DNA of 64,000 nt from Candidatus Goldiibacteriota bacterium (GCA_938034975.1 CALHNI010000005.1:60718-124717), one strand, 5' to 3'. Counted from the first letter of the stretch, positions 11,421 to 58,620 are shown. Numbers and translations: made by a program. The notes: generated by a model not told the origin, from the letters alone.

Positions 11421-11696
11421 AAACGGGTGAATATAAATAATATATAATAAATAAAAATTTATTAAATAAAAATAATAAAAAAATCCTGAAAAATGTATTA
11501 GCGTTTTTCAGGGGAAAAGAGAAAATATAAAAAAAAGGTTTATAAACAAATAAGAATTTTAAGATTGTCCTTGTTTTTAAAATTAAAAAACAGGTGAATT
11601 AAAGTAATGTACTATAAAAATAAAAAATTATTAAACAAAAAAAACAAAAATATTTTATATTCCCGTAAAAACGCATTTTCTAACGCGTTTTTACGG
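11421..11696 (+). repeat. intergenic composite repeat, copy F1 (D'-A-spacer-D-B), forward orientation
   Basis: Contains palindrome A 11485-11512 (cctgaaaaatgtattagcgtttttcagg), module D 11586-11662 (caggtgaattaaagtaatgtactataaaaataaaaaattattaaac...) and palindrome B 11663-11696 (ccgtaaaaacgcattttctaacgcgtttttacgg). The same modules recur at at least 9 other intergenic sites. Confidence 0.85.
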
Positions 11697-11709
11697 AGAA
11701 TTTAAATAT

Positions 11710-11738
11710 TTGACTTTTGTATTTTTTTATTTTAAAAT
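11710..11738 (+). promoter_or_regulatory. sigma70-type promoter: TTGACT-N17-TAAAAT, 13 nt downstream of palindrome B
   Basis: -35 TTGACT at 11710-11715, 17-nt spacer, -10 TAAAAT at 11733-11738. Gene start is at 11769. Confidence 0.55.
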
Positions 11739-11768
11739 TATAGATATACCAGGATATAAGGACGGAAA

Positions 11769-12206
11769 ATGGGTATTAATAGTATAAAAATAAAATTTAT
11801 TTTTTTAATTTTTATCTTTATTTCCTGTTCAGAAAATAAAAGATTAAAATATGAATTTGAAAATTACTTATACGGTGAATGGAAAGGTGGCGGCGAACAT
11901 GTGTTTTTTTCCAAAAATCATATTAAATATGATTTATATAAAAAAAATTTATGGTCAATAAGTAAATGGCGTATAATTAAAATAAATAAAAAAAGGAATT
12001 TGATCTATATTAATTTTTATGATATAAAACTTACTGAGGATGCAATAAATTTAAGTAAAAAATACGGGTTACCGATAGAAGGTATTTTAAAGCCTGTTAA
12101 CATTATTTATATTTTTGATGAAAAAAAACAAAAAATAAAAATATTCAAGGGTGGAAATTCTCCTGAAAATATTTTGAAAAAAATAAGTGAAAAACAAAAA
12201 CCTTAA
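11769..12206 (+). CDS. hypothetical lipoprotein
   Basis: 145 aa; signal peptide ending in FISC (lipobox-like); Lys-rich. Confidence 0.5.
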   Translation: MGINSIKIKFIFLIFIFISCSENKRLKYEFENYLYGEWKGGGEHVFFSKNHIKYDLYKKNLWSISKWRIIKINKKRNLIYINFYDIKLTEDAINLSKKYGLPIEGILKPVNIIYIFDEKKQKIKIFKGGNSPENILKKISEKQKP

Positions 12207-12223
12207 AAAAGGGAGGTATTAAA

Positions 12224-12640
12224 ATGAATGATTTTGGGATGGCTTTAGCAATTTCATGGAAAATTATTGAATCTTCGCTTTTATCTTTAATTGTCGCTGG
12301 TAGTATTTATTTGTGTATTATTTATTTTTTTGAAAAAAAGGATGAAGAAGGCAGAAAAAATGAAAAGATGCGCATAGAATTTGAAAGAAAAATTGCTAAT
12401 TTTACAAAAAATCTGATTTTGCCGCTTGCATTTTTAATTTTTGTTGGGTTGTATGGTAAAACACCAGTAATAGGGAAGATGATGTTAATATTAACAGCAG
12501 GTTCAATCTCTGCATCTAATCTTGCTGTTTTACTGAAAAAAGTTTTTGGACTTGAAAAAGAAGGAGAAACATTCTGGATACTATTTATCATTTGTTATTG
12601 TTTAATAATGTATATTTTAATAGGGGAAATTATTAAATAG
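12224..12640 (+). CDS. hypothetical membrane protein
   Basis: 138 aa with 3-4 hydrophobic helices. GGGAGG RBS. Confidence 0.45.
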   Translation: MNDFGMALAISWKIIESSLLSLIVAGSIYLCIIYFFEKKDEEGRKNEKMRIEFERKIANFTKNLILPLAFLIFVGLYGKTPVIGKMMLILTAGSISASNLAVLLKKVFGLEKEGETFWILFIICYCLIMYILIGEIIK

Positions 12641-12693
12641 TAAAAAAATATTCCTATAAAAATATAAAGAATAAAAGCAGTAAAAATAAAAAA

Positions 12694-12721
12694 GGCAACC
12701 ATTATTAGGTTGCCTTTTTTT
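12694..12721. terminator. bidirectional Rho-independent terminator (ggcaacc-attatta-ggttgcc flanked by A- and T-runs)
   Basis: 7-bp GC-containing stem 12694-12714 followed by T7 (12715-12721) on + and, after reverse-complementing, a T-run on - as well. Lies between the 3' ends of convergent gene 12224-12640 (+) and tRNA-fMet (-). Confidence 0.6.
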
Positions 12722-12723
12722 AT

Positions 12724-12798
12724 TGGTTGCGGGGGTTGGATTTGAACCAACGACCTCTGGGTTATGAGCCCAACGAGCTACCACTGCTCCACCCCGCG
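12724..12798 (-). tRNA. initiator tRNA-fMet (anticodon CAU), 75 nt with encoded CCA
   Basis: Reverse complement reads CGCGGGGTGGAGCAGTGGTAGCTCGTTGGGCTCATAACCCAGAGGTCGTTGGTTCAAATCCAACCCCCGCAACCA. It has the C1xA72 mismatch, three consecutive G-C pairs in the anticodon stem (GGG/CCC) and a CAU anticodon, all initiator hallmarks. Confidence 0.9.
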
Positions 12799-12869
12799 AT
12801 TTATTTAATTTGCACTCTGCTATTTTTAATAATTAAGAACCATATATAATATTATTATGCTGACCTAAC

Positions 12870-13066
12870 CTGTGGGGGTTGGATTTAGCCGCTACGCCGC
12901 TAGAAAGCGGCTACGCGTCTCCTGCTCGTCCTGCTGACGGCCGCATTATGATTCCTTTGGAAACTGCGGCCTTATCCTTCGGCGCAGGACTCGCCTTCGT
13001 CCTTACGGACTCAGCCAACGACCTCTGGGTTATGAGCCCAACGAACTACCACTGCTCCACCCCGCG
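12870..13066 (-). ncRNA. second tRNA-fMet paralog interrupted by a 128-nt GC-rich insertion (12887-13014) at T-loop positions 54-56. Intron-like element, novel structured RNA or disrupted pseudogene.
   Basis: The 5' 53 nt are identical to the neighbouring tRNA-fMet except one D-stem change (C->U, still pairs as G-U). The 3' part AAAUCCAACCCCCACAGG retains the T-stem 3' strand and acceptor, but with a G70->A change and no encoded CCA. Between them, the 128-nt insert (about 60% GC in a roughly 30% GC genome) replaces exactly UUC (54-56). The same 16-bp 5' flank (aattaaataaat) precedes both copies. Confidence 0.6.
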
Positions 13067-13103
13067 ATTTATTTAATTCTTTTACATCTTTTAATGAACC
13101 ATA

Positions 13104-13192
13104 TGGTGCCGGGAGCCGGAGTTGAACCGGCATGGAGGGTGAGCTCCCGTGGATTTTAAGTCCACTACGTCTACCAATTTCGTCATCCCGGC
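13104..13192 (-). tRNA. tRNA-Leu (anticodon UAA), 89 nt with a long variable arm and encoded CCA
   Basis: Reverse complement reads GCCGGGATGACGAAATTGGTAGACGTAGTGGACTTAAAATCCACGGGAGCTCACCCTCCATGCCGGTTCAACTCCGGCTCCCGGCACCA. Anticodon loop CUUAAAA; type II variable arm. Confidence 0.85.
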
Positions 13193-13209
13193 TATTATTT
13201 TGTTTTAAA

Positions 13210-13237
13210 ATTATAACAAATAAATTTTTTCTGTCAA
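13210..13237 (-). promoter_or_regulatory. sigma70 promoter on the minus strand for the tRNA-Leu/fMet*/fMet operon: TTGACA-N16-TATAAT
   Basis: On the minus strand the sequence reads cattcTTGACAgaaaaaatttatttgtTATAATttt. The -35 is at 13237..13232 and the -10 at 13215..13210. The tRNA-Leu 5' end is at 13192. Palindrome B (13251-13284) lies 13 nt upstream of the -35. Confidence 0.6.
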
Positions 13238-13250
13238 GAATGAATAACTT

Positions 13251-13433
13251 CCGTAAAAAAGCATTAGAAAATGCGTTTTTACGGAAAAAAATATTTTTAT
13301 TTTTATAAGTCATTACTTTTATTTACCCGTTTTTTATTTAAAATAAAACGCAAGAGTTTAATTTCTTTAATAATATTTTTTTTGTATGTTTTTCTCATGG
13401 AAATCGCAATCTTTTAATAATGAGATTTTCAGG
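13251..13433 (-). repeat. intergenic composite repeat, copy R1 (A'-D-B), reverse orientation
   Basis: Palindrome B variant 13251-13284 (ccgtaaaaaagcattagaaaatgcgtttttacgg), reverse module D around 13300-13345 (gtcattacttttatttacccgttttttatttaaaat) and reverse A'-like palindrome 13399-13433 (ggaaatcgcaatcttttaataatgagattttcagg). Confidence 0.8.
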
Positions 13434-13497
13434 AACTTGAAATAAAAAAAATTTTATGTAAATATATTTTAAAAAATAAGATAAAGGAGTAATAAAA

Positions 13498-13917: not shown

Positions 13918-13923
13918 AATATT

Positions 13924-15804: not shown

Positions 15805-15832
15805 CAGGTTAACTCCTAAATAAAAAATATGA

Positions 15833-15982
15833 CCGTAAAAAAAGTATTATTAAGAAAGTTAGTTTTTACAGAAAAAAGATATTTTTATTTATCAAGTTTC
15901 TATTTCTATAATGCATTACTTTTATTTACCTCTTTTTTAATTTATTTTCTGAAATCACAATTTTTTTATTGCGATTTTCAGG
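15833..15982 (-). repeat. intergenic composite repeat, copy R2 (A'-D-degenerate B), reverse orientation, between mnmG and rlmN
   Basis: Degenerate B 15833-15871 (ccgtaaaaaaagtattattaagaaagttagtttttacag), reverse module D 15903-15945 (atgcattacttttatttacctcttttttaattta) and A'-like palindrome 15949-15982 (ctgaaatcacaatttttttattgcgattttcagg). Confidence 0.75.
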
Positions 15983-30688: not shown

Positions 30689-31429
30689 ATGGATGAAAAA
30701 ATAAAAAGGTTAATTGAATTGATAGAATTAAGTGATAATATAGCAGCTTTGACAGGGGCCGGGATTAGCACTTTGTCAGGCATTCCTGATTTCAGGGGTG
30801 GCTATAATCCAATATGGGATAAATTCCCGCAGGAAAAAATTTTTGATATAGATTATTTTAAAAAAGATCCGTCCTTATTTTATGATTTTTTCAGAGAAAT
30901 ATCAAAAAAGAATTATGAGCCAAATATTTCTCATAAGTTTTTAAAATTTTTAGAAGATAAAGGGAAATTAAAAGGCATAATAACACAAAATATAGATGGT
31001 TTGCATCAGAAAACAGGGTCAAAGGCTGTATATGAACTGCATGGCAGCATTTATAAAAATCATTGTATGAAATGTAAAAAAAAGATAACATATGATGCGT
31101 TTTTAAATAAAGTAAAAGATGAAAGAGTTCCATTATGTGAATGTGGTGGAGTAATAAGACCTGATATTGTTTTTTTCGGGGAACTTTTGCCGGATTATGA
31201 TTTAAAAATGGCTTTTTCATTGGCGCAAAATACTGATTTACTTTTAATTGCCGGCACATCTCTTGTTGTTCAACCCGCTTCGTATATTCCAACATACACA
31301 CTAAAAAATGGAGGAAAAGTTGTTCTTATTAACAGAGGCGATACTTATATAAATGATAGAGCAGTACTAATTTTTACCGATATTAAGAAAACATTTGATT
31401 TTCTGGCGCAATACTATAAAATAACCTGA
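30689..31429 (+). CDS. cobB: NAD-dependent protein deacylase (Sir2/CobB sirtuin)
   Basis: GAGISTLSGIPDFRG, QNIDGLH, Zn ribbon CMKC...CECGG, IRPDIVFFGE; 246 aa. Confidence 0.8.
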   Translation: MDEKIKRLIELIELSDNIAALTGAGISTLSGIPDFRGGYNPIWDKFPQEKIFDIDYFKKDPSLFYDFFREISKKNYEPNISHKFLKFLEDKGKLKGIITQNIDGLHQKTGSKAVYELHGSIYKNHCMKCKKKITYDAFLNKVKDERVPLCECGGVIRPDIVFFGELLPDYDLKMAFSLAQNTDLLLIAGTSLVVQPASYIPTYTLKNGGKVVLINRGDTYINDRAVLIFTDIKKTFDFLAQYYKIT

Positions 31430-31605
31430 AAATCGCATTATTAGAAGATTGCGATTTTCAGAAGAAAAAAATATATGAAAAAATATATTATTAAAAAAAA
31501 ATAAAATATTTAAAACAATACTTGTTATTTATTTTAAATAAAAACAGATAAATAAAAGTTATAAAAATAAAAATTTATTAAATAAAAAAATAAAAAAATT
31601 TAGAA
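31425..31605 (+). repeat. intergenic composite repeat, copy F2 (A'-C-D, no B palindrome)
   Basis: A' palindrome 31425-31460 (cctgaaaatcgcattattagaagattgcgattttcag), which overlaps the cobB stop codon. Module C 31494-31540 (aaaaaataaaatatttaaaacaatacttgttatttattttaaat) and module D 31547-31605. Confidence 0.75.
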
Positions 31606-32659: not shown

Positions 32660-32830
32660 AAACCAAAAAATCGTAATAGAAAATAGCTGTTTAAAGTAGA
32701 AAAACACACAAAAAAATATTATTAAAAAAAGGAGATAAAAGTAATGCATTATAAAAATAAAAAATTTATAAATCAAAATATTTTGTTTTTTATCAAAAAT
32801 GCGTTTTCTAATTGGTTTTTAATGACCAAA
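32660..32830 (+). repeat. degenerate composite-repeat copy F3, whose SD+ATG and B-like module form the 5' end of the CPBP protease ORF
   Basis: The sequence ggagataaaagtaATGcattataaaaataaaaaatttataaatcaaaatattttgttttttatcaaaaatgcgttttctaattggtttttaatg parallels module D + B (aggtgaataaaagtaATGcactataaaaataaaaa...ccgtaaaaacgcattttctaacgcgtttttacgg). Confidence 0.55.
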
Positions 32831-33394: not shown

Positions 33395-33432
33395 AAATGC
33401 ATTTTAAAGTGAGTTTTTTACAGTTGTGAAAC

Positions 33433-33646
33433 CCGGAAATCGTATTAGAAAAATACGATTTTCAGAAGAAAAAACACAAAAAGTATATTATTTAAAAAAA
33501 TAAAATATTTAAAACAACACTTATCCTTTATTTTAAAAAACAGATGAATAAAAGTAATGCGTCATAAAAATAAAAAATTATTAAATAAAAATAATAAAAA
33601 TATTTTGTTTTTCCGTAAAAACGCATTTTCTAATGCGTTTTTACGG
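33433..33646 (+). repeat. intergenic composite repeat, copy F4 (A'-C-D-B), forward orientation
   Basis: A' 33433-33465 (cccggaaatcgtattagaaaaatacgattttcag), C 33494-33537, D 33538-33612 (cagatgaataaaagtaatgcgtcataaaaataaaaaattattaaat...) and B 33613-33646 (ccgtaaaaacgcattttctaatgcgtttttacgg). Confidence 0.85.
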
Positions 33647-33660: not shown

Positions 33661-33689
33661 TTGACAAAGAAAAATTGGTGTGATAATTT
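33661..33689 (+). promoter_or_regulatory. sigma70 promoter: TTGACA, then an extended -10 (TGtGATAAT / TAATTT), 14 nt downstream of palindrome B
   Basis: -35 TTGACA at 33661-66 and -10 region at 33679-33689. Followed by an approximately 100-nt leader with tandem AGGAGG motifs before the start at 33794. Confidence 0.5.
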
Positions 33690-40975: not shown

Positions 40976-40996
40976 TTTTTATCACAATTTAATTTT

Positions 40997-41207
40997 AAAA
41001 TTGCATTATTAGGAGACTGCGATTTTCATGAGAAAAAACAAAAATAATATATTATTTAAAAAAATGAAATATTTAAAACAACACTTGATCTTTATTTTAA
41101 ATAAAAACATGGTGAATAAAAGTAATGCAATATTAAAAATAAAAATTTATTAAATAAAAATATTTTGTTTTCCGTAATAAAAAGCTTTTTTAAATGCGTT
41201 TTTATGG
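40997..41207 (+). repeat. intergenic composite repeat, copy F5 (degenerate A'-C-D-degenerate B)
   Basis: A'-like 40997-41030 (aaaattgcattattaggagactgcgattttcatgag), C 41053-41100 (aaaaaaatgaaatatttaaaacaacacttgatctttattttaaat), D 41107-41165 (ggtgaataaaagtaatgcaatattaaaaataaaaatttattaaat) and B-like 41171-41207 (tccgtaataaaaagcttttttaaatgcgtttttatgg). Confidence 0.75.
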
Positions 41208-41220: not shown

Positions 41221-41250
41221 ATAGCAAAAATTAAAATTTTTTATTATAAT
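41221..41250 (+). promoter_or_regulatory. putative promoter of the kor operon: ATAGCA-N18-TATAAT, 13 nt after the B-like palindrome
   Basis: Weak -35 at 41221-26 and consensus -10 TATAAT at 41245-50. korD starts at 41285, preceded by a GGAG RBS. Confidence 0.4.
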
Positions 41251-44335: not shown

Positions 44336-47300
44336 ATGAAAATTGAAAAAAAAGAGATAGTTTTAAACTTTGAAATAGTTATAAAAGAACAGGATGGCCA
44401 TTTTATAGGTGAATGCATTGAATTGCCAGGACTTATTGTTAGCGGAGCAAATAAAAATGAGGTTATAAAAAATATTAAAGCGGCAATACCACTTTATTTA
44501 AAATATGTGCCAAAAGAGTCCTTTATACCTGTTTATGAAAATTCAATGACTCCTATAATATATGATTTTGAAGAATTCAATGGTTTTTTATATGCAGCAT
44601 CAAGCAAAGATGTGGTTTTAAAAACCCCCACCGGTGATGTTGGTTCATGGGAAAATATAAACATAACAAATATATTTTCGCCTTATTTTAATCCGCCTGT
44701 GGGAAAAATAAGGGATTTTACAACAGAAGATCTTGGTGATTATACGCCTCAGATATACTGTCTTAAATTTTTTAGTGACCTTGGAACACCAAAACTTTAC
44801 TGCGGAACAAATGCCAATGGCGGGATTTATGAAACGCTTGATGGTAAAAAATGGAGCTTATCATTTAACAGTGGTGAAGCAAGAGTGCATTGCCTTGAAG
44901 TTTTCAAAGGGAAACTTTTTGCTGGCACATCAACAGAAGGTAAAATATACAGTTATAATGGTACAAATTGGACAATTTCAAATGCAACAACTGAACTTGC
45001 TATTGTCTCTTTCGGGCTTTTCAGGGATTATCTTTATGCTGGCACTTACCCGAACGGCATAATATTCAGGACAGCAGATGGTATAAACTGGCAGAAAGTA
45101 TTTGATACAAATCAGAGTTTTGTAAATAGTTTTTGTGTTTTTAAAAACAGGTTATATGCTGCTACATCAAAAGCATCCGGTGCCCTTGTTTTTATGACAG
45201 AGGATGGAACAAACTGGGTTGAAAATTTTTTTTCTGAAAAGGATCCTAATTTTTTTAAATTTGCTGTTTTTGCAAATGCTCTTTATCTTGGGACAGGCGA
45301 TAATGGAAGAGTATATAAAACTTTAGACGGTAAAAAATGGGAACTTGCATTCCAGACAGATGAAGAAGATATAAGAGCCATAACAGTTTTTAATGGTTAT
45401 CTATATTTTGGCTCATCACCCAAAGGCAGAATATTTAAAACAATTGAAAGCAATGTGCCGCCACCAAAAGCGTATGATATTGAGATAAGCGAAGTGACGT
45501 CCCACAGCGCAGTTATAACATGGAAAACAGATAGGGAAGCAAACACTATAATAGAATATGGTTTGGATAAAAATTATGGTAATAATATTATAAATGAGAC
45601 AAAAACTGTAAATCATAAAATTACTTTGAATAATTTAAAAGCATTAACAACCTATCATTTTAGAATACTTACTTTTTCTGATATGGGAAGTTTTTCAGGT
45701 ATACTAGAAGATTATAGTTTTACAACCAGTGCGGCAGTTACGCCTGTTATTTCATCAAAGACGCATAGTGACCAGAATAAATGGTATTCTTCAATGGAAT
45801 GTGAACTAAACTGGGGCATACATCCTGAGGTAAAAAATTATTACTATTTATTTGATAAAAATCCTGAAACGGTTCCTGATATTTCAAAGTGTAATGTAAC
45901 GGCAAAAGAAAGCACTATTATAAAATTGCCGGAAGATGGAATATGGTATTTTCATTTACTTATTGAAGATAAAGCAGGAAATATAAGCACATCTGTTTCC
46001 CATTTTACAATAAAGATTGATACTTCGGCTTTGCCTCCTGATGTTTTTTCACCCACACACCCTGATAATACTAAATGGTATAATAACAGCAACGTTGTTT
46101 TAAAATGGAATCCACCCGATGATCTTTCAGGGATTGAAGGATATTATTTTATGATTGATGACTTACCTGGAACATTGGTAAATGAAAAATCTGGCAGGTT
46201 TACGTCTGATACTCAAATTTCAATAAAAATTCATGATGATGGAGTAAAATATTTTCATATTATATCAAAAGATAAGGCAGGTAATATAGGAACAAAGGCA
46301 ACACATTTCAGGATAAACATTGATACGCATTCTTTGCCACCTATAATAAGTTCTAAAACTCATCCTGATACAGAATCATGGTATAATGAAAGAGAGGCAG
46401 AAATTCATTTTGCAAAACCCCATGATTTATCAGGAATTGAAGGATTTTATTATTATGTGGATAATAATAAAACACCGAATGAAAATGTTGACTGGTCTTT
46501 CATTGAATCAGGAGATATAAAAATTAAAGTTAATCAGGATGGGATATGGTATGTTCATGCAAAATCAAAGGATTTGGCAGGAAATATATCAAAAGAAATA
46601 TCAAGTTTTAAATTAAAGATAGATACCCAGGCGTTACCACCTAACATATCTTCCTTAACACATCCTGATCCTAATAAATGGTATAATATTAAACGTGCCC
46701 AGTTTAAAATATATCCTTCTGATGATTTATCTGGCATAGAAGGTTATTATTATTTAATTGATACAAAAGAAAAAACAATTCCTGATACAACATCAGTTTG
46801 GCTTGATAAAGACACAATTTTTACGCCTGATTTAAAAGATGGCGAATGGTATTTACATATCATAACAAAAGATAAAGCAGGGAATGTTGGGATTTTGGCT
46901 TCTCATTTTAAATTTAATATTGATACTACAGCCAAGCCACCCAAAGTTTTTTCAAAAACACACCCGAACCAGGAGGAATGGTATAATAATCCAAATCCGG
47001 AATTACACTGGGAAACCCCTGAGGACCTTTCAGGCATAGAAGGTTATTATTATATTGTTGATAATAAACAAAATACAATACCAACAAAAGAAAACGGTGA
47101 ATGGATAAAGACAAATCAGGTTGTTCTTTCACAAATGGAAGATGGAATTTTTTATTTTCATATTGTTTCAAAAGATTATGCCGGTAATATAGGTTTTGAA
47201 GCAGAACATTTTAAAATAAAAATAGATACAAAAGTTGAATCTCCAAAAGTTATGTCATTGACGCATCCTGATGAAAACAAATGGTATAATAGCCAGATTG

Positions 47301-49873
47301 TAAAATTGTCATGGTCAGTTCCGCATGATTTGTCAAAAATAAGAAATTTTTATTATTTACTTTCCCAGGAAAAACAATTAAAGATAAATCCTGCTCTTGC
47401 AACAAAGACAGAAAAAAGAGAAATTGATTTTAATCTGGCAGAAGAAGGTATTTATTATTTTCATATAATAGGTGAGGATAACGCTGGTAATATAGGCGAT
47501 GAACCGGCTATATTTACGATTAAAATAGATTTAAAAGCCGAGCCGCCTGAGGTAATATCAACAACGCATCCCAATCCGGAAAAATTTTATTCAAATGTAA
47601 ATCCTGTTTTTGTTATAGAAAAAGTAAATGATTTATCTGGTGCTGATGGATTTTATTATATTGTTGATAAACAACCGGAAACAATACCAGATAAAAAAAC
47701 AGGAAGATTTGTAAATGATACAACTATAAAAATTCCGGAAAAATTAGAAGATGGTGAATGGTATTTTCATATTGTTTTAAAAGATAAAGCAGGTAATTTA
47801 GGAACAAAAGCTACACATTATAAATTTAAAATTGAGACAACACCGCCTGAGGCGCACATAAAGGAATTACCACAATTTGTTGCATCCGATACTTTTGAAG
47901 TTAAATGGACAGGTTCTGATAAAGAATCTGGAATAAATTGTTTTACCATAGAATACAAAGAAGGTGAAAAAGGAAAATGGAAAACCTGGCTTTTGGAAAC
48001 AAAAGCGCAATCAGGAATTTTTAAAGGAGAAGATGGTATTACTTATTATTTCAGAATAAAAGCAAAAGATAATGCGGGAAACTGGTCGGATTTTTTTGAG
48101 GATGAAAAAATAAAAACAACGATAGATATATCACCTCCTTCACCTGTAACCCAGATAGTTGCAAAGCCAATTGCTGGCGGAAAAATTTTACTGGAATGGA
48201 ATAAATCTTTGGATTCAATAAGTGGCCTTGATTTTTACAGGATATACAGGTCAACATCAAGCGGACAACTTGGGATGCAGATAAATAATGATGGTGAAAC
48301 AAAAGAGACGAAGTTTATTGATGAATCAAAAGAACTGGAAGATGGTATTATTTATTACTATACAATAAGAGCAGTGGATAAAATAGGAAATGAAAGGGAA
48401 AGTGGCAATAAGCAGATTTTTGCTATATGTGACAGAATTGCATTACCACCTGTAATTTCATCAATTACACATCCAATACAAGATCAGTGGTATAATCATA
48501 AAAATATAAAATTAACATGGAATACACCGCAAGATGCAACGAGGATAAATGGTTATTATTATATATTTGACCAGCTGTCAACAACTGTGCCTGATGCAAA
48601 AACAGGGAATTGGATTACAGAAAACGAAATAGACATTAACAATGTATCTGATGGGACGTGGTATTTTCATATAATATCAAAAGATGATGCCGGAAATTTA
48701 TCAGAAGAAGCAACTCATTTTAAGATAAATATAGATACAACAAAACCCAAACCACCGGTTGTTTCTTCTATTACACATCAGGATCCAAACCAGTGGTATA
48801 ATAATAATTCACCTTCTTTTTCATGGACAATACCTTCTGACCCGGCAGGAATAGAAGGTTATTATTATATTTTTAATCAGATGAAAAATGTGGTGCCTGA
48901 CATTGCTACATCAAGTTGGACAAAAGGAACAATTGCGTCTTTTGTTGATGTTCCGGACGGGATATGGTATTTTCATATCATTGCAAAGGACACAGCAGGT
49001 AATATTTCTGAAGAAGTTTCCCATTTTCAGATAAATGTTGCAATGTCGCCGCCGCCGCCTTATGTTTTTTCAGCATCACATCCTGACCAGGAAAAGTGGT
49101 ATAGGGAAAGAAATGTAAAGATACAATGGAAACCTGTAAAATATGTAAATGAAATAATAGGGTATTATTATGTTCTTGATAATAATGAAGGAACAATTCC
49201 AACGGTTAAATCAAATAAAACAATGGATACAAATGTGAATTTTCAGGATTTAAAAGATGGAATTTACTATTTTCATATAATATCGGTTGATAAAGAAGGT
49301 GTAATTGGAAGGACCGCGGCTCATTATAAAATAAAAATCAAGACAAAAATAACTTTAAAAGGAGTCATAACACAATCTAATGGAATTATGCCTTTGCCTG
49401 GTGCAACGGTTGAGGTGATGAAAGAAGATGGCACAACGCTTGGGGTTTCAATTTCAGATAAAGAAGGTAATTATCAAATAGAAAATTTATCCGTTGGGAA
49501 AGTAAAGATAAAAGTTCTTGCCAAAAATCTTCCGCCACAGATGATTTATGATATAGAATTAACCGAGGACCAGTCAGAAAGAATATTAAATATATCTTCT
49601 GAAATATTTGCAATCTATGAACCATCAACAGAAAAAATAATTTTTAATTATTATATACCTGAAAACGGATTGGTTACTATAAAAATTTATACCGAAAGTG
49701 GTAAAATACTTCATACCATAGAAGAAAAAAAGACAGGTAAAATATACAATAATTCTTTTTGGAATGTTAAAGATATAGAAGATGGAATATATCTTTACCA
49801 GATAACTTCAAAAGGTGATGCAACAGGAAAATTAACCAGATACGCTATAAGGAAAATAAAAAAAGGAAAATAA
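44336..49873 (+). CDS. giant multi-domain protein: HicB-like N-terminal domain + BNR/Ycf48-like beta-propeller + FN3 + ten ~100-aa tandem repeat modules + CarboxypepD_reg-like domain + C-terminal T9SS/FlgD-Ig-like sorting-type beta-sandwich
   Basis: 1845 aa. aa 1-60 match the HicB/UPF0150 pattern (FEIVIKEQDGHFIGECIELPGLIVSGANKNEVIKNIKAAIPLYL). Propeller repeats (LYAGT..G.IY.T.DG..W). FN3 (VTSHSAVITWKTDREANTIIEYGLD). Ten repeats of THPD..KWYN...WN.P.DLSGIEGYYY..D......P..............DG.WYFH....DKAGN.G....HF.I.ID. The C-terminus LVTIKIYTESGKILHTIEE...WNVKDIEDGIYLYQITSKGD resembles type-A CTD/FlgD-Ig. Confidence 0.6.
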   Translation: MKIEKKEIVLNFEIVIKEQDGHFIGECIELPGLIVSGANKNEVIKNIKAAIPLYLKYVPKESFIPVYENSMTPIIYDFEEFNGFLYAASSKDVVLKTPTGDVGSWENINITNIFSPYFNPPVGKIRDFTTEDLGDYTPQIYCLKFFSDLGTPKLYCGTNANGGIYETLDGKKWSLSFNSGEARVHCLEVFKGKLFAGTSTEGKIYSYNGTNWTISNATTELAIVSFGLFRDYLYAGTYPNGIIFRTADGINWQKVFDTNQSFVNSFCVFKNRLYAATSKASGALVFMTEDGTNWVENFFSEKDPNFFKFAVFANALYLGTGDNGRVYKTLDGKKWELAFQTDEEDIRAITVFNGYLYFGSSPKGRIFKTIESNVPPPKAYDIEISEVTSHSAVITWKTDREANTIIEYGLDKNYGNNIINETKTVNHKITLNNLKALTTYHFRILTFSDMGSFSGILEDYSFTTSAAVTPVISSKTHSDQNKWYSSMECELNWGIHPEVKNYYYLFDKNPETVPDISKCNVTAKESTIIKLPEDGIWYFHLLIEDKAGNISTSVSHFTIKIDTSALPPDVFSPTHPDNTKWYNNSNVVLKWNPPDDLSGIEGYYFMIDDLPGTLVNEKSGRFTSDTQISIKIHDDGVKYFHIISKDKAGNIGTKATHFRINIDTHSLPPIISSKTHPDTESWYNEREAEIHFAKPHDLSGIEGFYYYVDNNKTPNENVDWSFIESGDIKIKVNQDGIWYVHAKSKDLAGNISKEISSFKLKIDTQALPPNISSLTHPDPNKWYNIKRAQFKIYPSDDLSGIEGYYYLIDTKEKTIPDTTSVWLDKDTIFTPDLKDGEWYLHIITKDKAGNVGILASHFKFNIDTTAKPPKVFSKTHPNQEEWYNNPNPELHWETPEDLSGIEGYYYIVDNKQNTIPTKENGEWIKTNQVVLSQMEDGIFYFHIVSKDYAGNIGFEAEHFKIKIDTKVESPKVMSLTHPDENKWYNSQIVKLSWSVPHDLSKIRNFYYLLSQEKQLKINPALATKTEKREIDFNLAEEGIYYFHIIGEDNAGNIGDEPAIFTIKIDLKAEPPEVISTTHPNPEKFYSNVNPVFVIEKVNDLSGADGFYYIVDKQPETIPDKKTGRFVNDTTIKIPEKLEDGEWYFHIVLKDKAGNLGTKATHYKFKIETTPPEAHIKELPQFVASDTFEVKWTGSDKESGINCFTIEYKEGEKGKWKTWLLETKAQSGIFKGEDGITYYFRIKAKDNAGNWSDFFEDEKIKTTIDISPPSPVTQIVAKPIAGGKILLEWNKSLDSISGLDFYRIYRSTSSGQLGMQINNDGETKETKFIDESKELEDGIIYYYTIRAVDKIGNERESGNKQIFAICDRIALPPVISSITHPIQDQWYNHKNIKLTWNTPQDATRINGYYYIFDQLSTTVPDAKTGNWITENEIDINNVSDGTWYFHIISKDDAGNLSEEATHFKINIDTTKPKPPVVSSITHQDPNQWYNNNSPSFSWTIPSDPAGIEGYYYIFNQMKNVVPDIATSSWTKGTIASFVDVPDGIWYFHIIAKDTAGNISEEVSHFQINVAMSPPPPYVFSASHPDQEKWYRERNVKIQWKPVKYVNEIIGYYYVLDNNEGTIPTVKSNKTMDTNVNFQDLKDGIYYFHIISVDKEGVIGRTAAHYKIKIKTKITLKGVITQSNGIMPLPGATVEVMKEDGTTLGVSISDKEGNYQIENLSVGKVKIKVLAKNLPPQMIYDIELTEDQSERILNISSEIFAIYEPSTEKIIFNYYIPENGLVTIKIYTESGKILHTIEEKKTGKIYNNSFWNVKDIEDGIYLYQITSKGDATGKLTRYAIRKIKKGK

Positions 49874-55241: not shown

Positions 55242-55360
55242 AAAATTTTTTAAATTTAAAGTGCATTTCTTTTTGTTTTTATTATCAATCAAGTATATTT
55301 TAAATTAAAAATTATAAAATTAATAAAAACTTAAAAAAAAAACAATATTATTCCCTAATA

Positions 55361-55607
55361 TTTAATTCAACCTGAAAATCATTAGAAGATTGTTATTTTC
55401 AGCAAAAAAACAAAAATAATATAATTATTATTAAAAAATTAAAAAATTAAAAAATTAAAATATTTAAAACAACACTTGTTCTTTATTTAAAATTAAAAAA
55501 AAAAGATGAATAAAACAATGCAGTATAAAAATAAAAATTTATTTAAATAAAAATAATAAAAAAATTTATTTTTTCGTAAAAACGAGTTTTCTAACGCGTT
55601 TTTATGG
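55361..55607 (+). repeat. intergenic composite repeat, copy F6 (A'-C-D-B), forward orientation
   Basis: A' 55361-55392 (cctgaaaatcattagaagattgttattttcag), C 55443-55490 (aaaaaattaaaatatttaaaacaacacttgttctttattt), D 55497-55573 (agatgaataaaacaatgcagtataaaaataaaaatttatttaaat...) and B 55574-55607 (tcgtaaaaacgagttttctaacgcgtttttatgg). Confidence 0.85.
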
Positions 55608-55621
55608 TTCAATAAGGGGCG

Positions 55622-55650
55622 TTGACATATATTTTAAATACATATATAAT
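55622..55650 (+). promoter_or_regulatory. consensus sigma70 promoter TTGACA-N17-TATAAT, 14 nt downstream of palindrome B
   Basis: TTGACA at 55622-27, 17-nt spacer, TATAAT at 55645-50. Gene start is at 55694, with an AAGGT SD. Confidence 0.65.
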
Positions 55651-55693
55651 TAAAACATAAAAGAAAAAATCCGTAAAAAATTTAAGGTAAAAA

Positions 55694-58303
55694 ATGAAGA
55701 AAACATTTCTGGTTCTTATGCTGATAAATTTGTTATTTTCATTGGATTGCAGGAAAAGAATGCCAACTGCACCTGAATATACCCCTGAACCTACCCAGAT
55801 AATAGTTCCAACATATACACAAACAATTACTCCAACATTAATTTTCACAAATACACATACACAAACTTTTACTTTAACTCATACAACAACAAATACTTTT
55901 ACTTACACCGAAACATTTATAATCCCATCAGATACATTTACAGCAACATCTACTTTTTCTGCAACATACTCAGTGACACAAATTTTCATAAATACAGAAA
56001 CATTTACAGAAACTCATACACAATATTTTACCCCGACAGAAACTCCAACTAATAGTTTTACTTTTACAGACACAATGACTTTAACAGAAAGTTTTACTTT
56101 TACAAACACAGAAACGCCAACAATTACATTTTCTTTTACAGAAACTTTTACTTATGGAGCAACTTTTACAGTTACTGAAACTTTAACTCCGTATCATGGA
56201 AGCGCTTTAATTTCGCCAACAACAGTTTATGGAAAAACATCAGGTAATACAATAACAATAACTTATACAAACGGAAATATAAACTGGGCAGAGGCACCGT
56301 CATATGGGACATTAAAAATAAAAATACCGGCTGGCTGGAGTTTACCAAGTTTAGATCCTTTAAACGCAGGGTATTTTAGCGTTGCAGTGGAAAATGGTTC
56401 TTTGTATGGTCAGTGGGTCCAGGGTAATGAAATAATAATTGGTGTTCGTAACCTAAAACCATTTACAGGTAAAATAATAGTTAATTATGGAGACAAAAGT
56501 TTTGGACCAGGTGCTTTTGTTGATGGTAATGGATTTATAGTTATAGTTGTAGAAGTTGATGAAGATGGAAATCAAACCCAGGAGATAGAGCAAAGTCCTC
56601 AGATTTATGTTGTTCCAGCAACACCGACAATAACCCCAACAATAACTCCTATAATGGGAGAAGGAATAATAGAAATTGATCCATACATTTATGTGGATGG
56701 CACAACCGGAAATACAATGCATTTTATTTATACTGCTGGTCCTACGACATGGGCATCAGGAATGCAATATGGGACATTACGTATAACTTTACCACCTGGC
56801 TTTTCTCAACCGAGCACACAAATTACAAATGCAGGTTATTTTTATGTTACTACAACAGGAAATGAATGGATAGGGACTTCAGTAGATGGTCAGGATATGA
56901 TAATAAATGTGAAAGGTTTACCAGCAATAACCGGAAAGATAAATATTTATTATGGTTATAAAGGGTTTGGGAGTCCAGGTGCTTTTATTACAGGAAACGG
57001 AGTTATTGAAATAATGGTAAAGAGTAATCCTTCTGGTGATGAAACTTATAGATTGCATTTACTTCCGACTATTATGATAATACCGCCAACTGGAACTATA
57101 ACGCCGACAATTACAGAAACAAACACTTTTACAATAACACCTACAATAACAGAAACATTTACTATAACTCCTACATTTACCATATCTGATACATTTACAA
57201 TAAGCCCTACATTTACAATATCTGATACAATAACAGAAACAGTAACGCAAACAATTACTCAGACAATTACACCAACTTTAACTTTTACTTTTACCCCAAC
57301 TCCTCACTGGACTTATGTGGGGAATTCTGGATTTTCTGATGGAGCAGGTGAAAATCCATCTATTTTTGTTTACAATGGTATACCTTATGTTGTGTATACA
57401 GATTTAAAAAATGCAGGTAAAGCAACAGTTAAAAAATTTACAGGAATAAATTGGGAAGATGTGGGTTTACATGCATTTACATCAGACATTGCTTATGAAC
57501 CTAGTATATTTGTTTACGCAAATCAACCTTATGTCGCATTCAGAGATTTTGCACACTCTAACAGATTAAGTGTTATGAAATACAATGGTTCTAATTGGGT
57601 TTATATTGGTTCGCCTGGTTTTACAAGTGGTGCTGCTTATAATCCAAAAATATTCATCTATGCAGATAAAATTTATGTTGGATTTAAAGACGGGTCTTTA
57701 AAAGCAAATGTTATGGTTTATGATGGTAACTGGCAATATGTTGGCTCGCCCGGATTTTCAGATGGACAAATTTCTGATTTTTCATTTTATCTTTATTATG
57801 ATGTTCCATATTTTTCATATCAGGATTGGACGCAGAATTTCAAAGCAACAGTTATGCATAACAGTGGAGCCGGCTGGATGGCTATAGGGAATAAAGGATT
57901 TACAAATGGTAAAGTAAATTACACATCTTTATTTGTAGATGACGGAACACCTTATGTCGCTTTTGCAGATGAAAATTTATCTAATAAGCTAAGTTTAATA
58001 AAATATGATGGAGACAACTGGGTTTATTCAGGAGAAGGAATATCAGATGGAGAAGCACAATATGTTTCACTTTTTATTTATAATGGCAAACCATCTGTGG
58101 CGTATAAGGATTCAGCGCATGAAAATAAATTTTCTGTGGTAAAATATAATGGTATTTCCTGGGAATCTTTAGGAATAGGTATATCAGAAGGAGAAGTAAA
58201 TTATATATCATATTTTATATATAATGGTATTCCATATGTTGCATATCAGGATGTAATACATAATAATAAAATATCAGTTATGATGTATGAAGGAAACTAT
58301 TAA
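55694..58303 (+). CDS. secreted Thr-rich repeat protein: signal peptide, Thr/Phe low-complexity linkers, two ~150-aa beta-rich domains, C-terminal 8 x ~45-aa repeats (propeller-like)
   Basis: 869 aa. Signal MKKTFLVLMLINLLFSLDC. Low-complexity PTYTQTITPTLIFTNTHTQTFTLTHTTTNTFTYTETF... and ITETNTFTITPTITETFTITPTFTISDTF... Eight repeats of GFS.G....S.F.Y.G.PYVA..D.....K..V.KY.G..W..(I/V)G. Confidence 0.5.
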   Translation: MKKTFLVLMLINLLFSLDCRKRMPTAPEYTPEPTQIIVPTYTQTITPTLIFTNTHTQTFTLTHTTTNTFTYTETFIIPSDTFTATSTFSATYSVTQIFINTETFTETHTQYFTPTETPTNSFTFTDTMTLTESFTFTNTETPTITFSFTETFTYGATFTVTETLTPYHGSALISPTTVYGKTSGNTITITYTNGNINWAEAPSYGTLKIKIPAGWSLPSLDPLNAGYFSVAVENGSLYGQWVQGNEIIIGVRNLKPFTGKIIVNYGDKSFGPGAFVDGNGFIVIVVEVDEDGNQTQEIEQSPQIYVVPATPTITPTITPIMGEGIIEIDPYIYVDGTTGNTMHFIYTAGPTTWASGMQYGTLRITLPPGFSQPSTQITNAGYFYVTTTGNEWIGTSVDGQDMIINVKGLPAITGKINIYYGYKGFGSPGAFITGNGVIEIMVKSNPSGDETYRLHLLPTIMIIPPTGTITPTITETNTFTITPTITETFTITPTFTISDTFTISPTFTISDTITETVTQTITQTITPTLTFTFTPTPHWTYVGNSGFSDGAGENPSIFVYNGIPYVVYTDLKNAGKATVKKFTGINWEDVGLHAFTSDIAYEPSIFVYANQPYVAFRDFAHSNRLSVMKYNGSNWVYIGSPGFTSGAAYNPKIFIYADKIYVGFKDGSLKANVMVYDGNWQYVGSPGFSDGQISDFSFYLYYDVPYFSYQDWTQNFKATVMHNSGAGWMAIGNKGFTNGKVNYTSLFVDDGTPYVAFADENLSNKLSLIKYDGDNWVYSGEGISDGEAQYVSLFIYNGKPSVAYKDSAHENKFSVVKYNGISWESLGIGISEGEVNYISYFIYNGIPYVAYQDVIHNNKISVMMYEGNY

Positions 58304-58330
58304 ATAGAAATAATAAAAACAGTTTGTTTT

Positions 58331-58578
58331 CCAGTAAAAACGCGATTTCTAATGCGTTTTTAAGGTTAAACCTGAAAAACGCATTAGCGTTTTTCAGGGA
58401 AAAAAAGGAAATATAAAAAAGGTTTATAAACAAATATAATTTTTAAAAGAGAACTTATTTTTAAATTAAAAAACAGGTGAATAAAAGTAATGCACTTTAA
58501 AAATAAAAATTATTAAACAAAAAAGACAAAAATATTTTATATTTCCGTAAAAACGCATTTTCTAATGTGTTTTTACGG
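58331..58578 (+). repeat. intergenic composite repeat, copy F7 (B-A-spacer-D-B), forward orientation
   Basis: B 58331-58365 (ccagtaaaaacgcgatttctaatgcgtttttaagg), A 58371-58398 (cctgaaaaacgcattagcgtttttcagg), a ggtttataaacaaat spacer shared with copies F1/R3, D 58469-58544 and B 58545-58578 (ccgtaaaaacgcattttctaatgtgtttttacgg). Confidence 0.85.
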
Positions 58579-58591
58579 TTAAATATTTCAA

Positions 58592-58620
58592 TTTACATTT
58601 TTAATTTTTTTATTTAAAAT
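58592..58620 (+). promoter_or_regulatory. sigma70 promoter TTTACA-N17-TAAAAT, 13 nt downstream of palindrome B
   Basis: -35 at 58592-97 and -10 at 58615-20. NSS transporter start is at 58650, with a GGAGG SD. Confidence 0.55.

What the first reader, a model, noticed from the sequence alone, without database searches (positions are those of the whole stretch)
11663..58620. Palindrome B sits a fixed 13-14 bp upstream of near-consensus -35/-10 hexamers in six transcription units: a mobile promoter/operator cassette
In six copies the right-hand palindrome is followed, after exactly 13-14 nt, by a -35/-10 pair. The pairs are TTGACT-N17-TAAAAT (11710), TTGACA-N16-TATAAT (minus strand, 13237..13210, driving the tRNA operon), TTGACA plus extended -10 (33661), ATAGCA-N18-TATAAT (41221), TTGACA-N17-TATAAT (55622) and TTTACA-N17-TAAAAT (58592). 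This places the 34-bp palindrome at about -50 to -85, the position of UP elements and class I activator sites. The downstream genes are unrelated: a lipoprotein, the tRNAs, a TPR-Roadblock protein, the kor operon, the Thr-rich surface protein and the NSS transporter. So either a global dimeric regulator binds CCGTAAAAACGC(N10)GCGTTTTTACGG, or the repeat is a self-propagating promoter donor.
Basis: partly seen in the sequence, partly recalled or inferred. Interest (0 to 1): 0.75.

Follow-up and report, generated by a model that had tools for sequence, protein, structure and literature searches.

The report
Miniature transposon that docks beside promoters
The palindrome is the end of a small non-coding jumping element (a MITE) that has repeatedly landed 13-14 bases upstream of the -35 box of promoters that were already there, which suggests a bacterial transposon that picks its landing site by reading promoters.

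Summary
The interpretation needs changing.

- **What it is.** Palindrome B is the right terminal inverted repeat of a 150-237 bp MITE. The window holds 8 full and 4 partial copies. The left end (palindrome A) is its mirror image.
- **Evidence of mobility.** Five copies have perfect 5-bp target-site duplications. Related genomes lack the element and show clean empty sites.
- **The promoters are not carried.** They lie outside the duplications. Five of the sites were compared with relatives lacking the element: the four promoter-adjacent ones keep the same promoter there, and the fifth (c15) is a clean empty site.
- **Spacing rule.** Seven of eight full copies end 13-14 bp (5-bp duplication plus 8-9 bp) from a -35 hexamer. 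One of them is inverted, so palindrome A faces the promoter. One site was hit twice.
- **Control.** A different MITE family in a relative occupies the same intergenic regions without fixed spacing.
- **Likely parent.** An IS481-family transposase remnant with matching ends sits beside a copy in a relative.

Best reading: promoter-anchored targeted transposition, not an operator and not a mobile promoter. Whether the -35 DNA or bound RNA polymerase is what gets recognised is unresolved. I found no published precedent.

The parts
11336..11484 (+). Decayed older copy ('Y') directly abutting the next copy. It has a degenerate palindrome A and the internal region but no palindrome B.
   Evidence: Reading of the sequence. 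Too decayed for nhmmer.
11485..11696 (+). Full MITE copy c11482 (young subfamily). Flanking 5-mers AAAAT/AGAAT match at 4 of 5.
11710..11738 (+). Resident promoter TTGACT-N17-TAAAAT, 13 nt from the element end; a 145-aa gene lies downstream.
13251..13433 (-). Full MITE copy c13 with perfect 5-bp duplication AAGTT.
13210..13237 (-). Resident promoter TTGACA-N16-TATAAT (12/12) of tRNA-Leu, 13 nt from the element end. It is conserved in relative L029, which lacks the element.
15833..15982 (-). Full MITE copy c15 in the mnmG 5' UTR, with duplication TCATA. This is the exception to the promoter rule: TTAGGA lies at +13.
   Evidence: Empty sites in L027 and L029.
31425..31588 (+). Truncated copy c31 without palindrome B. 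Its first bases supply the TGA stop of the Sir2-family gene.
32702..32824 (+). Decayed right part of a copy (c32), overlapping the called start of the CAAX-protease ORF.
33432..33646 (+). Full MITE copy c33 with duplication GTGAA.
33661..33689 (+). Promoter TTGACA with an extended -10 (TGTGATAAT), 14 nt from the element end; the TPR-Roadblock gene lies downstream.
40993..41207 (+). Full MITE copy c41 with a degenerate left end. Probable duplication ATTTA, with a 1-nt shift.
41221..41250 (+). Promoter-like ATAGCA-N18-TATAAT, 13 nt from the element end; the oxidoreductase operon lies downstream.
55371..55607 (+). Full MITE copy c55 with duplication TTCAA.
55622..55650 (+). Resident promoter TTGACA-N17-TATAAT (12/12), 14 nt from the element end. 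An orthologous promoter is present without the element in L033 and L042.
58302..58365 (+). Solo right-end fragment ('X') of an earlier copy. Its palindrome B abuts the TTAAA that the next copy duplicated.
58371..58578 (+). Full MITE copy c58 with duplication TTAAA. This is the second hit at the same 5-bp target.
58592..58620 (+). Resident promoter TTTACA-N17-TAAAAT of the NSS transporter, 13 nt from the element end. It is present without the element in L033, L034, L040 and L042.
60422..60604 (-). Full MITE copy c60, inverted, 95% identical to c58. No recognisable duplication.
60618..60646 (+). Resident promoter TTGCCA-N17-TATTAT of the BFN-domain gene, 13 nt from the palindrome A end of c60. 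It is present without this element in L033.

Best explanation
Palindrome B is the right terminal inverted repeat of a non-autonomous transposable element (MITE) of 150-237 bp.

**Anatomy.** The two ~40-bp ends are mirror images of each other. Each is itself a hairpin-forming palindrome with a conserved asymmetric centre (ATTAGAAAA read from the tip).

**Mobilisation (inferred).** The element is moved in trans. The likely enzyme is an IS481-family DDE transposase encoded elsewhere.

**Integration (shown).** Insertion makes a 5-bp staggered cut, seen as target-site duplications.

**Landing site (shown).** The 5-bp duplication lies 8-9 bp upstream of the -35 hexamer of a promoter that was already there. 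The element end is therefore 13-14 bp from the -35, roughly at position -49 of the promoter.

**Cause of the spacing (inferred).** The element does not bring the promoter and is not needed for it. The spacing reflects targeted insertion anchored on the promoter. Two mechanisms are possible:
- the transposase reads a -35-like hexamer directly, perhaps as a surrogate of the TTAGAA motif that sits at the same distance (positions 14-19) inside its own ends;
- the transposase reads RNA polymerase holoenzyme bound at the promoter.

**Why it would persist (inferred).** In this compact genome such a site is a safe haven between transcription units. That would explain why nearly half of the intergenic DNA in the window is this element.
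For: **It is a transposable element.**
- The left ends and reverse-complemented right ends of all copies align over ~40 nt, including the loop.
- Perfect 5-bp direct repeats flank c13, c15, c33, c55 and c58. Each has roughly a 0.002 chance, so five of eight is about 1e-11 by my arithmetic.
- Removing c15 and one TCATA restores the 72-79 bp rlmN-mnmG spacer of relatives L027 and L029 base for base.
- No ORF is conserved on either strand.

**The promoters are resident.**
- The tRNA-Leu promoter is present in L029 without the element.
- The promoters of the Thr-rich protein gene, the NSS transporter gene and the BFN-domain gene are present in L033, L034, L040 and L042 without it.

**The spacing is targeted.**
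- 7 of 8 full copies end 13-14 nt from a -35 hexamer with a -10 at 16-18 nt.
- Both 12/12 promoters of the window are among them.
- Even given that each insertion fell in its own intergenic gap (72-215 non-element bases), the joint chance is about 3e-13 (my arithmetic).
- c60 obeys the rule with its other end.
- Fragment X and c58 used the same TTAAA target.
- Distance to the -35 varies by 1 nt, and distance to the -10 by 2 nt.

**Control.** A different 327-bp MITE in relative GCA_973628015.1 sits in the same intergenic regions at 7 nt and ~115 nt from the -35.

**Likely parent.** In L042 a copy shares its palindrome B with a decayed element. That element has a palindrome A-like end and an N-terminal fragment matching NCBIfam IS481-family transposase, E 6e-16.
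Against: - **Small sample.** There are only about 10 insertion events, all from one 64-kb window of one uncultivated organism.
- **Untested copies.** Two copies (c33, c41) have no empty-site comparison.
- **Weak -35.** The -35 at c41 is weak (ATAGCA).
- **Exception.** c15 is not next to a promoter.
- **Out-of-window copy.** The only one with an unambiguous flank (L009) has TTTATA at +13 but a poor -10, scoring 7/12.
- **Promoters are predictions.** No transcription start site has been mapped.
- **No intact parent.** No intact transposase with these ends was found. The element ends in CC...GG, whereas IS481-family ends normally begin TGT.
- **Survivor bias.** Survivors alone cannot separate 'targets promoters' from 'targets TTGACA-like hexamers, with only intergenic hits surviving'.
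Confidence: 0.8

Rival explanations
1. Operator or activator site. Palindrome B is the binding site of a global dimeric regulator, kept at a fixed class-I-like position upstream of many promoters because it controls them.
For: - The palindrome is a perfect 15-bp-arm dyad with a conserved centre.
- It lies at a constant -49 to -83.
- Most strong promoters of the window carry it.
- A protein, at least the transposase, very probably binds it, so secondary regulatory use is possible.
Against: - It is part of a 200-bp insertion with target-site duplications.
- Orthologous promoters in relatives lack it.
- At c60 the promoter faces the other end of the element.
- c15 lies in a 5' UTR and fragment X is now separated from its promoter by c58, while c31 and c32 have lost or degraded the palindrome.
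Confidence: 0.1
2. Mobile promoter cassette. The repeat carries the -35/-10 with it and donates a promoter wherever it lands.
For: - Homologous upstream sequence precedes unrelated genes, as in the 'putative mobile promoters' of PMC3488235.
- The c11482 and c58 flanks look somewhat alike (family D15).
Against: - The hexamers lie outside the 5-bp duplications.
- Sequence between the element end and the -35 is unrelated among copies.
- Four of the promoters exist in relatives with no element.
Confidence: 0.03
3. Random insertion followed by selection. The element inserts anywhere, and only copies just upstream of promoters are harmless enough to persist.
For: - The genome is compact, with only 19 gaps of >=50 bp in 64 kb.
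- The BFN promoter region has been hit by three different insertions in three lineages.
Against: - Selection explains intergenic location but not a 2-bp window inside gaps of 72-215 bp, P about 3e-13.
- The second MITE family in a relative, under the same constraints, shows variable distances.
- X and c58 hit the identical 5-mer.
Confidence: 0.04
4. REP/RAYT-type or IS200/IS605-type hairpin element that moves as single-stranded DNA and is recognised through its hairpins.
For: Both ends are strong hairpins, z -7 to -10 as DNA.
Against: - Those elements make no target-site duplication and have no terminal inverted repeats in this sense. Here 5-bp duplications and ~40-bp inverted ends are present.
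- The transposase remnant beside a copy is of the IS481 (DDE) type.
Confidence: 0.03

Closest known systems
Prokaryotic MITEs (Correia/CREE of Neisseria, ERIC, RUP, MITEAba12; review PMC10969869)
   Same: Small, non-coding, multicopy and mostly intergenic. It has terminal inverted repeats and target-site duplications, differs in presence between relatives, and breaks short-read assemblies.
   Different: The review's section on insertion-site preference reports only a general intergenic bias. Here the element sits at a fixed 13-14 bp from -35 hexamers, and each inverted repeat is itself a long palindrome. Correia elements carry promoters; this element lands next to resident ones.
ISAba32 subgroup of the IS1202 family, which targets XerCD recombination sites (bioRxiv 10.1101/2022.12.17.520857)
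   Same: It makes a 5-bp duplication and inserts at a fixed short distance from a site bound by host proteins. One end usually faces the site, and one site can be hit repeatedly.
   Different: The landmark there is an xrs/dif site, not a promoter. IS1202-family ends begin TGT, whereas these begin CC. The transposase family is also different.
Tn7 (TnsD at attTn7) and Tn5053/Tn402 'res hunters' (own knowledge)
   Same: They make a 5-bp duplication. Insertion is asymmetric and at a fixed distance, directed by recognition of a nearby landmark, following a safe-haven logic.
   Different: Those are large multi-protein transposons with TGT...ACA ends and a single or rare target. Here many promoters serve as targets, and no TnsC/TniQ-type genes are in evidence.
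IS911 and other IS3-family elements inserting next to sequences that resemble their own ends (own knowledge; the IS481 family is the sister group)
   Same: This offers a possible mechanism. The element's ends carry TTAGAA at positions 14-19 from the tip, and the targets carry TTGACA-like hexamers at the same distance from the junction. The two non-consensus targets (TTAGGA at c15, ATAGCA at c41) resemble TTAGAA better than they resemble TTGACA.
   Different: The similarity is limited to one hexamer and is untested.
Ty3, Ty1 and Dictyostelium TRE5-A, which integrate at fixed distances upstream of RNA polymerase III genes (own knowledge)
   Same: Integration is anchored on the transcription machinery or promoter of a compact genome, which spares coding sequence.
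   Different: Those are eukaryotic retroelements with known protein tethers. Here the element is a bacterial DNA transposon with an unknown tether.
IS481 family
   Same: The N-terminal 110 residues of a decayed transposase beside a copy match NF033577 (E 6e-16). A 5-bp duplication is within the family's range (own knowledge).
   Different: The ends are CC...GG rather than TGT...ACA. No intact member with these ends was seen. No promoter targeting is known for the family.

Membership tests
MITE (non-autonomous DNA transposon) | Small size, below about 500 bp | tested here: met
   Copies are 150-237 bp.
MITE (non-autonomous DNA transposon) | Terminal inverted repeats | tested here: met
   Left ends and reverse-complemented right ends align over ~40 nt, consensus CCTnAAAAACGCATTAnAAAnTGCGTTTTTnAGG.
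MITE (non-autonomous DNA transposon) | Target-site duplication of constant length | tested here: met
   Perfect 5-bp repeats flank 5 of 8 full copies. One more is probable, one matches at 4 of 5, and one has none.
MITE (non-autonomous DNA transposon) | No coding capacity | tested here: met
   Sense and antisense ORFs are 3-71 aa and not conserved in frame.
MITE (non-autonomous DNA transposon) | Empty sites in related genomes | tested here: met
   The c15 site is restored exactly. The c13, c55, c58 and c60 sites are empty in relatives.
MITE (non-autonomous DNA transposon) | An autonomous element with the same ends encoding the transposase | tested here: inconclusive
   None in the window. A decayed candidate in L042 has a palindrome A-like end, an IS481-type N-terminal fragment and a shared palindrome B.
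IS481 family derivative | Transposase matching the family model | tested here: inconclusive
   Only the first ~110 residues survive. They score 58.8 bits against NF033577, whose full-length cutoff is 224.
IS481 family derivative | Ends beginning 5'-TGT | tested here: not met
   Ends are CCTG... and CCGT.... The TGT rule is cited for IS3/IS481 in bioRxiv 10.1101/2022.12.17.520857.
Transcription-factor operator / class I activator site | Site conserved at orthologous promoters of related genomes | tested here: not met
   Relatives keep the promoters but have no palindrome.
Transcription-factor operator / class I activator site | A cognate DNA-binding regulator | not testable with these tools
   This needs pull-down or EMSA.
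Putative mobile promoter (PMC3488235) | The repeated unit includes the promoter itself | tested here: not met
   The -35 and -10 lie outside the duplication and differ in their flanks.
REP/RAYT or IS200/IS605-derived palindromic element | No target-site duplication; subterminal hairpins without inverted ends | tested here: not met
   5-bp duplications and inverted ends are present.
Tn7-like / Tn5053-like element | 5-bp duplication with fixed-distance, orientation-biased insertion | tested here: met
   Orientation is 6 to 1 among the seven promoter-adjacent full copies (7 to 1 counting fragment X), which is not significant on its own.
Tn7-like / Tn5053-like element | TGT...ACA termini | tested here: not met
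   Termini are CC...GG.
Tn3-derived miniature element (TIME) | ~38-bp ends beginning GGGG | tested here: not met
   The ends are ~40 bp but begin CCTG/CCGT. The Tn3 feature is from my own knowledge.
Known RNA family | Match to an Rfam model | tested here: not met
   Only three tRNAs reach gathering score in the window.

The most novel reading that the evidence does not exclude
The transposition machinery of this element uses RNA polymerase holoenzyme sitting on a promoter (sigma region 4 or the alpha C-terminal domains) as its landing beacon. That would make it the first bacterial counterpart of Ty3/TFIIIB-type promoter tethering. As a by-product, most strong promoters of the genome now carry the same transposase-binding palindrome at -50 to -83, so the transposase or a domesticated relative could act as a genome-wide regulator.
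Probability: 0.3. Interest if true: 0.9.

Novelty: new variant of a known kind. Interest (0 to 1): 0.7.

Why it matters
- **An undescribed targeting mode.** Bacterial insertion sequences and MITEs are generally described as landing at random, at short sequence motifs, or at a few special sites such as attTn7, res, dif/xrs, REP and attC. An element that measures its landing point from the -35 box would be a new mode. It would be convergent with the promoter-tethered retroelements of compact eukaryotic genomes.
- **Directly testable.** The spacing rule gives a precise prediction for any complete genome of this lineage and for a plasmid-based transposition assay.
- **Possible tool.** If the anchor is a short DNA motif or polymerase itself, the system could be used to deliver DNA next to promoters.
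- **Effect on the host.** Every occupied promoter has had its native upstream region pushed ~200 bp away and replaced by the same hairpin-forming, A-tract-rich sequence. This could rewire upstream regulation for a large share of transcription units at once.
- **Practical consequence.** The element explains why short-read assemblies of this organism break at these positions.

Tried and rejected
**Searches that found little or nothing**
- Scan of 185,579 species genomes for the palindrome arms: 24 single hits. All were chance terminator-like palindromes except L009, a 3.2-kb contig starting inside a 90%-identical copy. It is binned in an Actinomycetota MAG and is probably mis-binned.
- Scan of JGI metagenomes: one chance hit in eukaryote-like DNA.
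- Viral contigs, plasmids and phages by blastn: nothing.
- A chimeric query made of the spurious peptides encoded by the element, meant to fish out further copies through the protein database: no hit. This cost the last homology search.
- Looking beyond the window edges through other assemblies: no new clear copy.
- Rfam: only tRNAs.
- Literature: nine searches that ran (the search errored), plus a 2024 review of prokaryotic MITEs, turned up no promoter-anchored bacterial IS or MITE.

**Ideas rejected**
- The conserved AGGTGA-N9-ATG inside the element starts a small protein. The reading frames are broken in most copies.
- The 216-aa CAAX-protease ORF is the source of the repeat. It merely begins in a decayed copy.
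- The palindromes are intrinsic terminators. No T-run follows on either strand.
- L042's TTGAAA-N18-TATATT at +14 is an independent confirmation of the rule. It lies inside the adjoining IS remnant.
- An 11-nt resemblance of palindrome A to the Tn402 end, recalled from memory. It is not conserved among copies.

Full report
**1. The observation**

A search for CCGTAAAAACGC-N10-GCGTTTTTACGG with up to three mismatches finds seven sites in the window, against none in 100 shuffles. An eighth, degenerate copy lies at 41172-41207. As single-stranded DNA the sequence folds into a 15-bp stem with a 4-nt loop (-16.1 kcal/mol, z = -8).

The gap between palindrome and -35 is 13 or 14 nt in each.

I scored every position of both strands for TTGACA-N16-18-TATAAT. 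Only two positions score 12/12 and 84 score at least 10/12. Both perfect sites, and five of the 84, lie at offset 13-14 from an end of the repeat. The chance per end is 0.0013. Five hits in 16 ends is about 1e-11 by my binomial arithmetic.

**2. The palindrome is the end of a longer repeat**

The sequence upstream of each palindrome is also repeated. The unit runs as follows:
- a first palindrome A (CCTGAAAA[A/T]CGC...GCG[A/T]TTTTCAGG);
- an A-rich stretch;
- a conserved AACAGGTGAATAAAAGTAATGCA block;
- a run of A-tracts;
- palindrome B.

I delimited eight full copies:

| Copy | Coordinates | Strand |
|---|---|---|
| c11482 | 11485-11696 | + |
| c13 | 13251-13433 | - |
| c15 | 15833-15982 | - |
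| c33 | 33432-33646 | + |
| c41 | 40993-41207 | + |
| c55 | 55371-55607 | + |
| c58 | 58371-58578 | + |
| c60 | 60422-60604 | - |

There are also four partial or decayed copies: 11336-11484, 31425-31588, 32702-32824 and 58302-58365.

When the left ends and the reverse complements of the right ends are aligned, they match over about 40 nt. The match includes the asymmetric centre ATTAGAAAA and the A-run that follows. The two palindromes are therefore terminal inverted repeats of one element.

**3. It is a transposable element**

- **Target-site duplications.** Five copies are flanked by perfect 5-bp direct repeats: AAGTT, TCATA, GTGAA, TTCAA and TTAAA. One more is probable with a 1-nt shift (c41, ATTTA), one matches at 4 of 5, and one (c60) has none. 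In this base composition a perfect 5-mer match has a chance of roughly 0.002.
- **Organism and relatives.** MnmG homologues place the organism near uncultivated bacteria labelled Candidatus Goldbacteria/Goldiibacteriota (76% identity). Closer unnamed relatives reach 86-88%.
- **Empty site.** In two of those relatives the rlmN-mnmG spacer is 72-79 bp (L027, L029). In the window it is 228 bp. Deleting c15 and one copy of TCATA makes the window colinear with both relatives.
- **No coding capacity.** No reading frame is conserved on either strand.
- **No autonomous copy here.** No further ends occur in the window.
- **Age.** Copies fall into a young subfamily (c11482, c58, c60, L009; 87-95% identical) and an older one (72-82%).

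**4. The promoters are resident, not carried**

The -35/-10 pairs lie outside the duplications. The order is element end, 5-bp duplication, 8-9 nt of unrelated sequence, then the -35. Relatives that lack the element keep the same promoters:

| Promoter | Sequence in the relative | Relative without the element |
|---|---|---|
| tRNA-Leu | TTGACA-N16-TATAAT | L029 |
| Thr-rich protein | TTGACT/TTGACA-N17-TATAAT | L033, L042 |
| NSS transporter | TTTACA-N17-TAAAAT (TACAAT in L034/L042) | L033, L034, L040, L042 |
| BFN-domain gene | TTGCCA-N17-TATTAT | L033 |

This removes the 'promoter donor' reading. It also removes the idea that the palindrome is a conserved operator.

**5. The spacing rule is general and looks like targeting**

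- **A seventh case.** Copy c60 is inverted, and it is its palindrome A end that lies 13 nt from TTGCCA-N17-TATTAT (60618-60646). Seven of eight full copies therefore obey the rule, with either end.
- **A site hit twice.** Fragment X (58302-58365) ends exactly at the TTAAA that c58 duplicated. Before c58 arrived, X itself ended 13 nt from the NSS promoter, so the same 5-bp target was used twice. The decayed copy at 11336-11484 abutting c11482 is a second tandem arrangement.
- **Limited room does not explain it.** The window has only 19 intergenic gaps of 50 bp or more, totalling 4480 bp, and about 47% of that DNA is this element. The occupied gaps still offer 72-215 non-element positions each.
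- **The -35 is the reference point.** Distance to the -35 varies by one base, and distance to the -10 by two.
- **The determinant is one-sided.** The left flanks show no mirror-image motif.
- **Orientation.** Palindrome B faces the promoter in six of the seven promoter-adjacent full copies, or seven of eight counting fragment X. This is suggestive but not significant.

**6. A natural control**

Relative GCA_973628015.1 (L027, L040) lacks this element. It has its own 327-bp MITE with ends TGTAATAGTTCAGCCACCAG... in the same intergenic regions. That element ends 7 nt from the BFN promoter and about 115 nt from the NSS promoter. Intergenic survival alone therefore does not produce a fixed distance.

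**7. Exceptions and limits**

- c15 sits in the mnmG 5' UTR. The hexamer at +13 is TTAGGA.
- c31 has lost its right end.
- c32 is decayed and overlaps a gene start.
- c41 has a weak -35 (ATAGCA).
- L009 is a contig that begins inside a 92%-identical copy. It shows TTTATA at +13 but a poor -10, scoring 7/12.
- The sites of c33 and c41 could not be compared with relatives.
- All promoters are predictions.

**8. Likely parent**

In L042 (run SRR27730023, NSS 91% identical) a full copy lies at 10564-10750. On the other strand, sharing its palindrome B, there is a decayed element made of:
- a palindrome A-like end (CCTGAAGCGAAATTTTTAAGGG);
- 105 nt of leader;
- a ribosome-binding site and ATG;
- a frameshifted 118-residue N-terminus.

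That N-terminus matches NCBIfam NF033577, IS481-family transposase, at positions 2-110 (E 6e-16). It also matches Pfam HTH_32 and LZ_Tnp_IS481. This is the best lead to the mobilising enzyme. The CC...GG termini differ from the TGT ends usual in that family, so membership is not established.

**9. Mechanism**

*Shown:*
- a non-autonomous element with inverted palindromic ends;
- a 5-bp staggered integration;
- insertion 8-9 bp upstream of pre-existing -35 hexamers;
- repeated use of the same site.

*Inferred:* target choice is anchored on the promoter. Two versions remain.
- **(a) Direct DNA recognition.** The transposase recognises the hexamer as DNA. The element's own ends carry TTAGAA at positions 14-19 from the tip, the same distance at which targets carry TTGACA-like hexamers. 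The two non-consensus targets (TTAGGA, ATAGCA) resemble TTAGAA more than TTGACA. The loop is also the only part of the end that tells the tip side from the inner side, and its orientation is conserved at both ends. Insertion next to end-like sequences is known for IS911 of the related IS3 family (own knowledge).
- **(b) Tethering to polymerase.** The transposase is tethered by RNA polymerase holoenzyme. This would explain why the occupied sites are the best complete promoters of the window.

The data cannot separate the two, because hits inside genes would have been lost.

**10. Comparison and novelty**

The element is a MITE by every structural test. Fixed-distance insertion beside a landmark, with a 5-bp duplication and a usual orientation, is the logic of Tn7 at attTn7 and of the ISAba32 subgroup of IS1202 at XerCD sites. 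Promoter-anchored integration is known for eukaryotic retroelements (own knowledge).

I found no bacterial IS or MITE reported to land at a set distance from the -35. That covers nine literature searches that ran and a 2024 review whose section on insertion preferences mentions only intergenic bias. I therefore rate it a new variant of a known kind.

**11. Verdict**

| Claim | Confidence |
|---|---|
| It is a MITE | about 0.95 |
| The spacing reflects targeted insertion anchored on promoters | about 0.8 |
| The anchor is polymerase rather than DNA sequence | about 0.3 |

Noticed in passing
window 31425-31429: The TGA stop codon of the Sir2-family gene (30689..31429) is formed by the first bases (CC TGA) of the truncated element copy c31. 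The insertion therefore reshaped the gene's 3' end.
   Followed up: partly
window 32744-32830: The 216-aa CAAX-protease (Rce1-like) ORF begins at an ATG inside a decayed element copy. The true start may be the ATG near 32822 (ATGACCAAATAT). Gene callers in other assemblies use the upstream ATG (L025).
   Followed up: partly
window 58371-60604: c58 and c60 are 95% identical and inverted. They bracket the NSS transporter gene and a 32-aa membrane ORF (60226-60324) like a composite transposon. Synteny in relatives argues that the gene itself has not moved.
   Followed up: partly
L040 3130-3455, 5210-5531, 5723-6049; L027 11919-12324, 13740-14000: Relative GCA_973628015.1 has an unrelated ~327-bp MITE family with ends TGTAATAGTTCAGCCACCAG.../...CTGGTGGCTAAACTGTTACA and a probable 5-bp duplication GTTTA. 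It occupies the same intergenic regions.
   Followed up: partly
L033 3430-3560 and 6336-6480; L042 6950-7110: Relatives carry G/T-rich short tandem motifs (TTGCTGGTTGCTGATTG, CGGTTTACGATTT, GGCAGGTGGCAAATGG) right after the stop codons of the PurH and Thr-rich protein genes. These are absent from the window.
   Followed up: no
L042 7323-8313 (also L034 231-1221): In the SRR27730023/SRR30574052 lineage a nucleotidyltransferase-HEPN pair is inserted between the Thr-rich protein gene and the NSS gene.
   Followed up: no
L009 (JACVJA010000310.1): A 3.2-kb AT-rich contig binned in an Actinomycetota MAG (Ca. Calidifonticultor daggyaiensis, hot spring) starts inside a 92%-identical element copy. It is very probably mis-binned and belongs to a relative of the window's organism. 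It encodes a long ORF from 447 that runs off the contig end.
   Followed up: partly
L035, L025, L037 ends versus window 33619, 41096, 11355: Short-read contigs of the same species from other samples start and stop inside element copies. The element is therefore a main cause of assembly breaks in this organism.
   Followed up: yes
window 45929-49348: The 1845-aa ORF (44336..49873) contains about ten ~300-nt tandem domain repeats at 60-77% identity.
   Followed up: no
window 55815-57294: The 869-aa protein without a Pfam match (55694..58303) has 18-nt periodic ACx-rich (threonine) repeats. Its orthologues in relatives are of similar length.
   Followed up: no
window 12688-12720: There is a perfect 13-bp-stem bidirectional terminator between the 138-aa gene and tRNA-Met. 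This shows that canonical terminators with T-runs exist in this genome, unlike the element's palindromes.
   Followed up: no
window 12799-13103: A 305-nt spacer lies between tRNA-Leu and tRNA-Met, with no ORF and no Rfam match.
   Followed up: no
L037 1-110: The region upstream of the Big_1 giant protein gene, 7.8 kb left of the window, holds hairpin remnants (AAAATCTA...TAGATTTTCAGG, GTGTGTTTTTAC) that may be a very decayed copy. nhmmer does not call it.
   Followed up: partly
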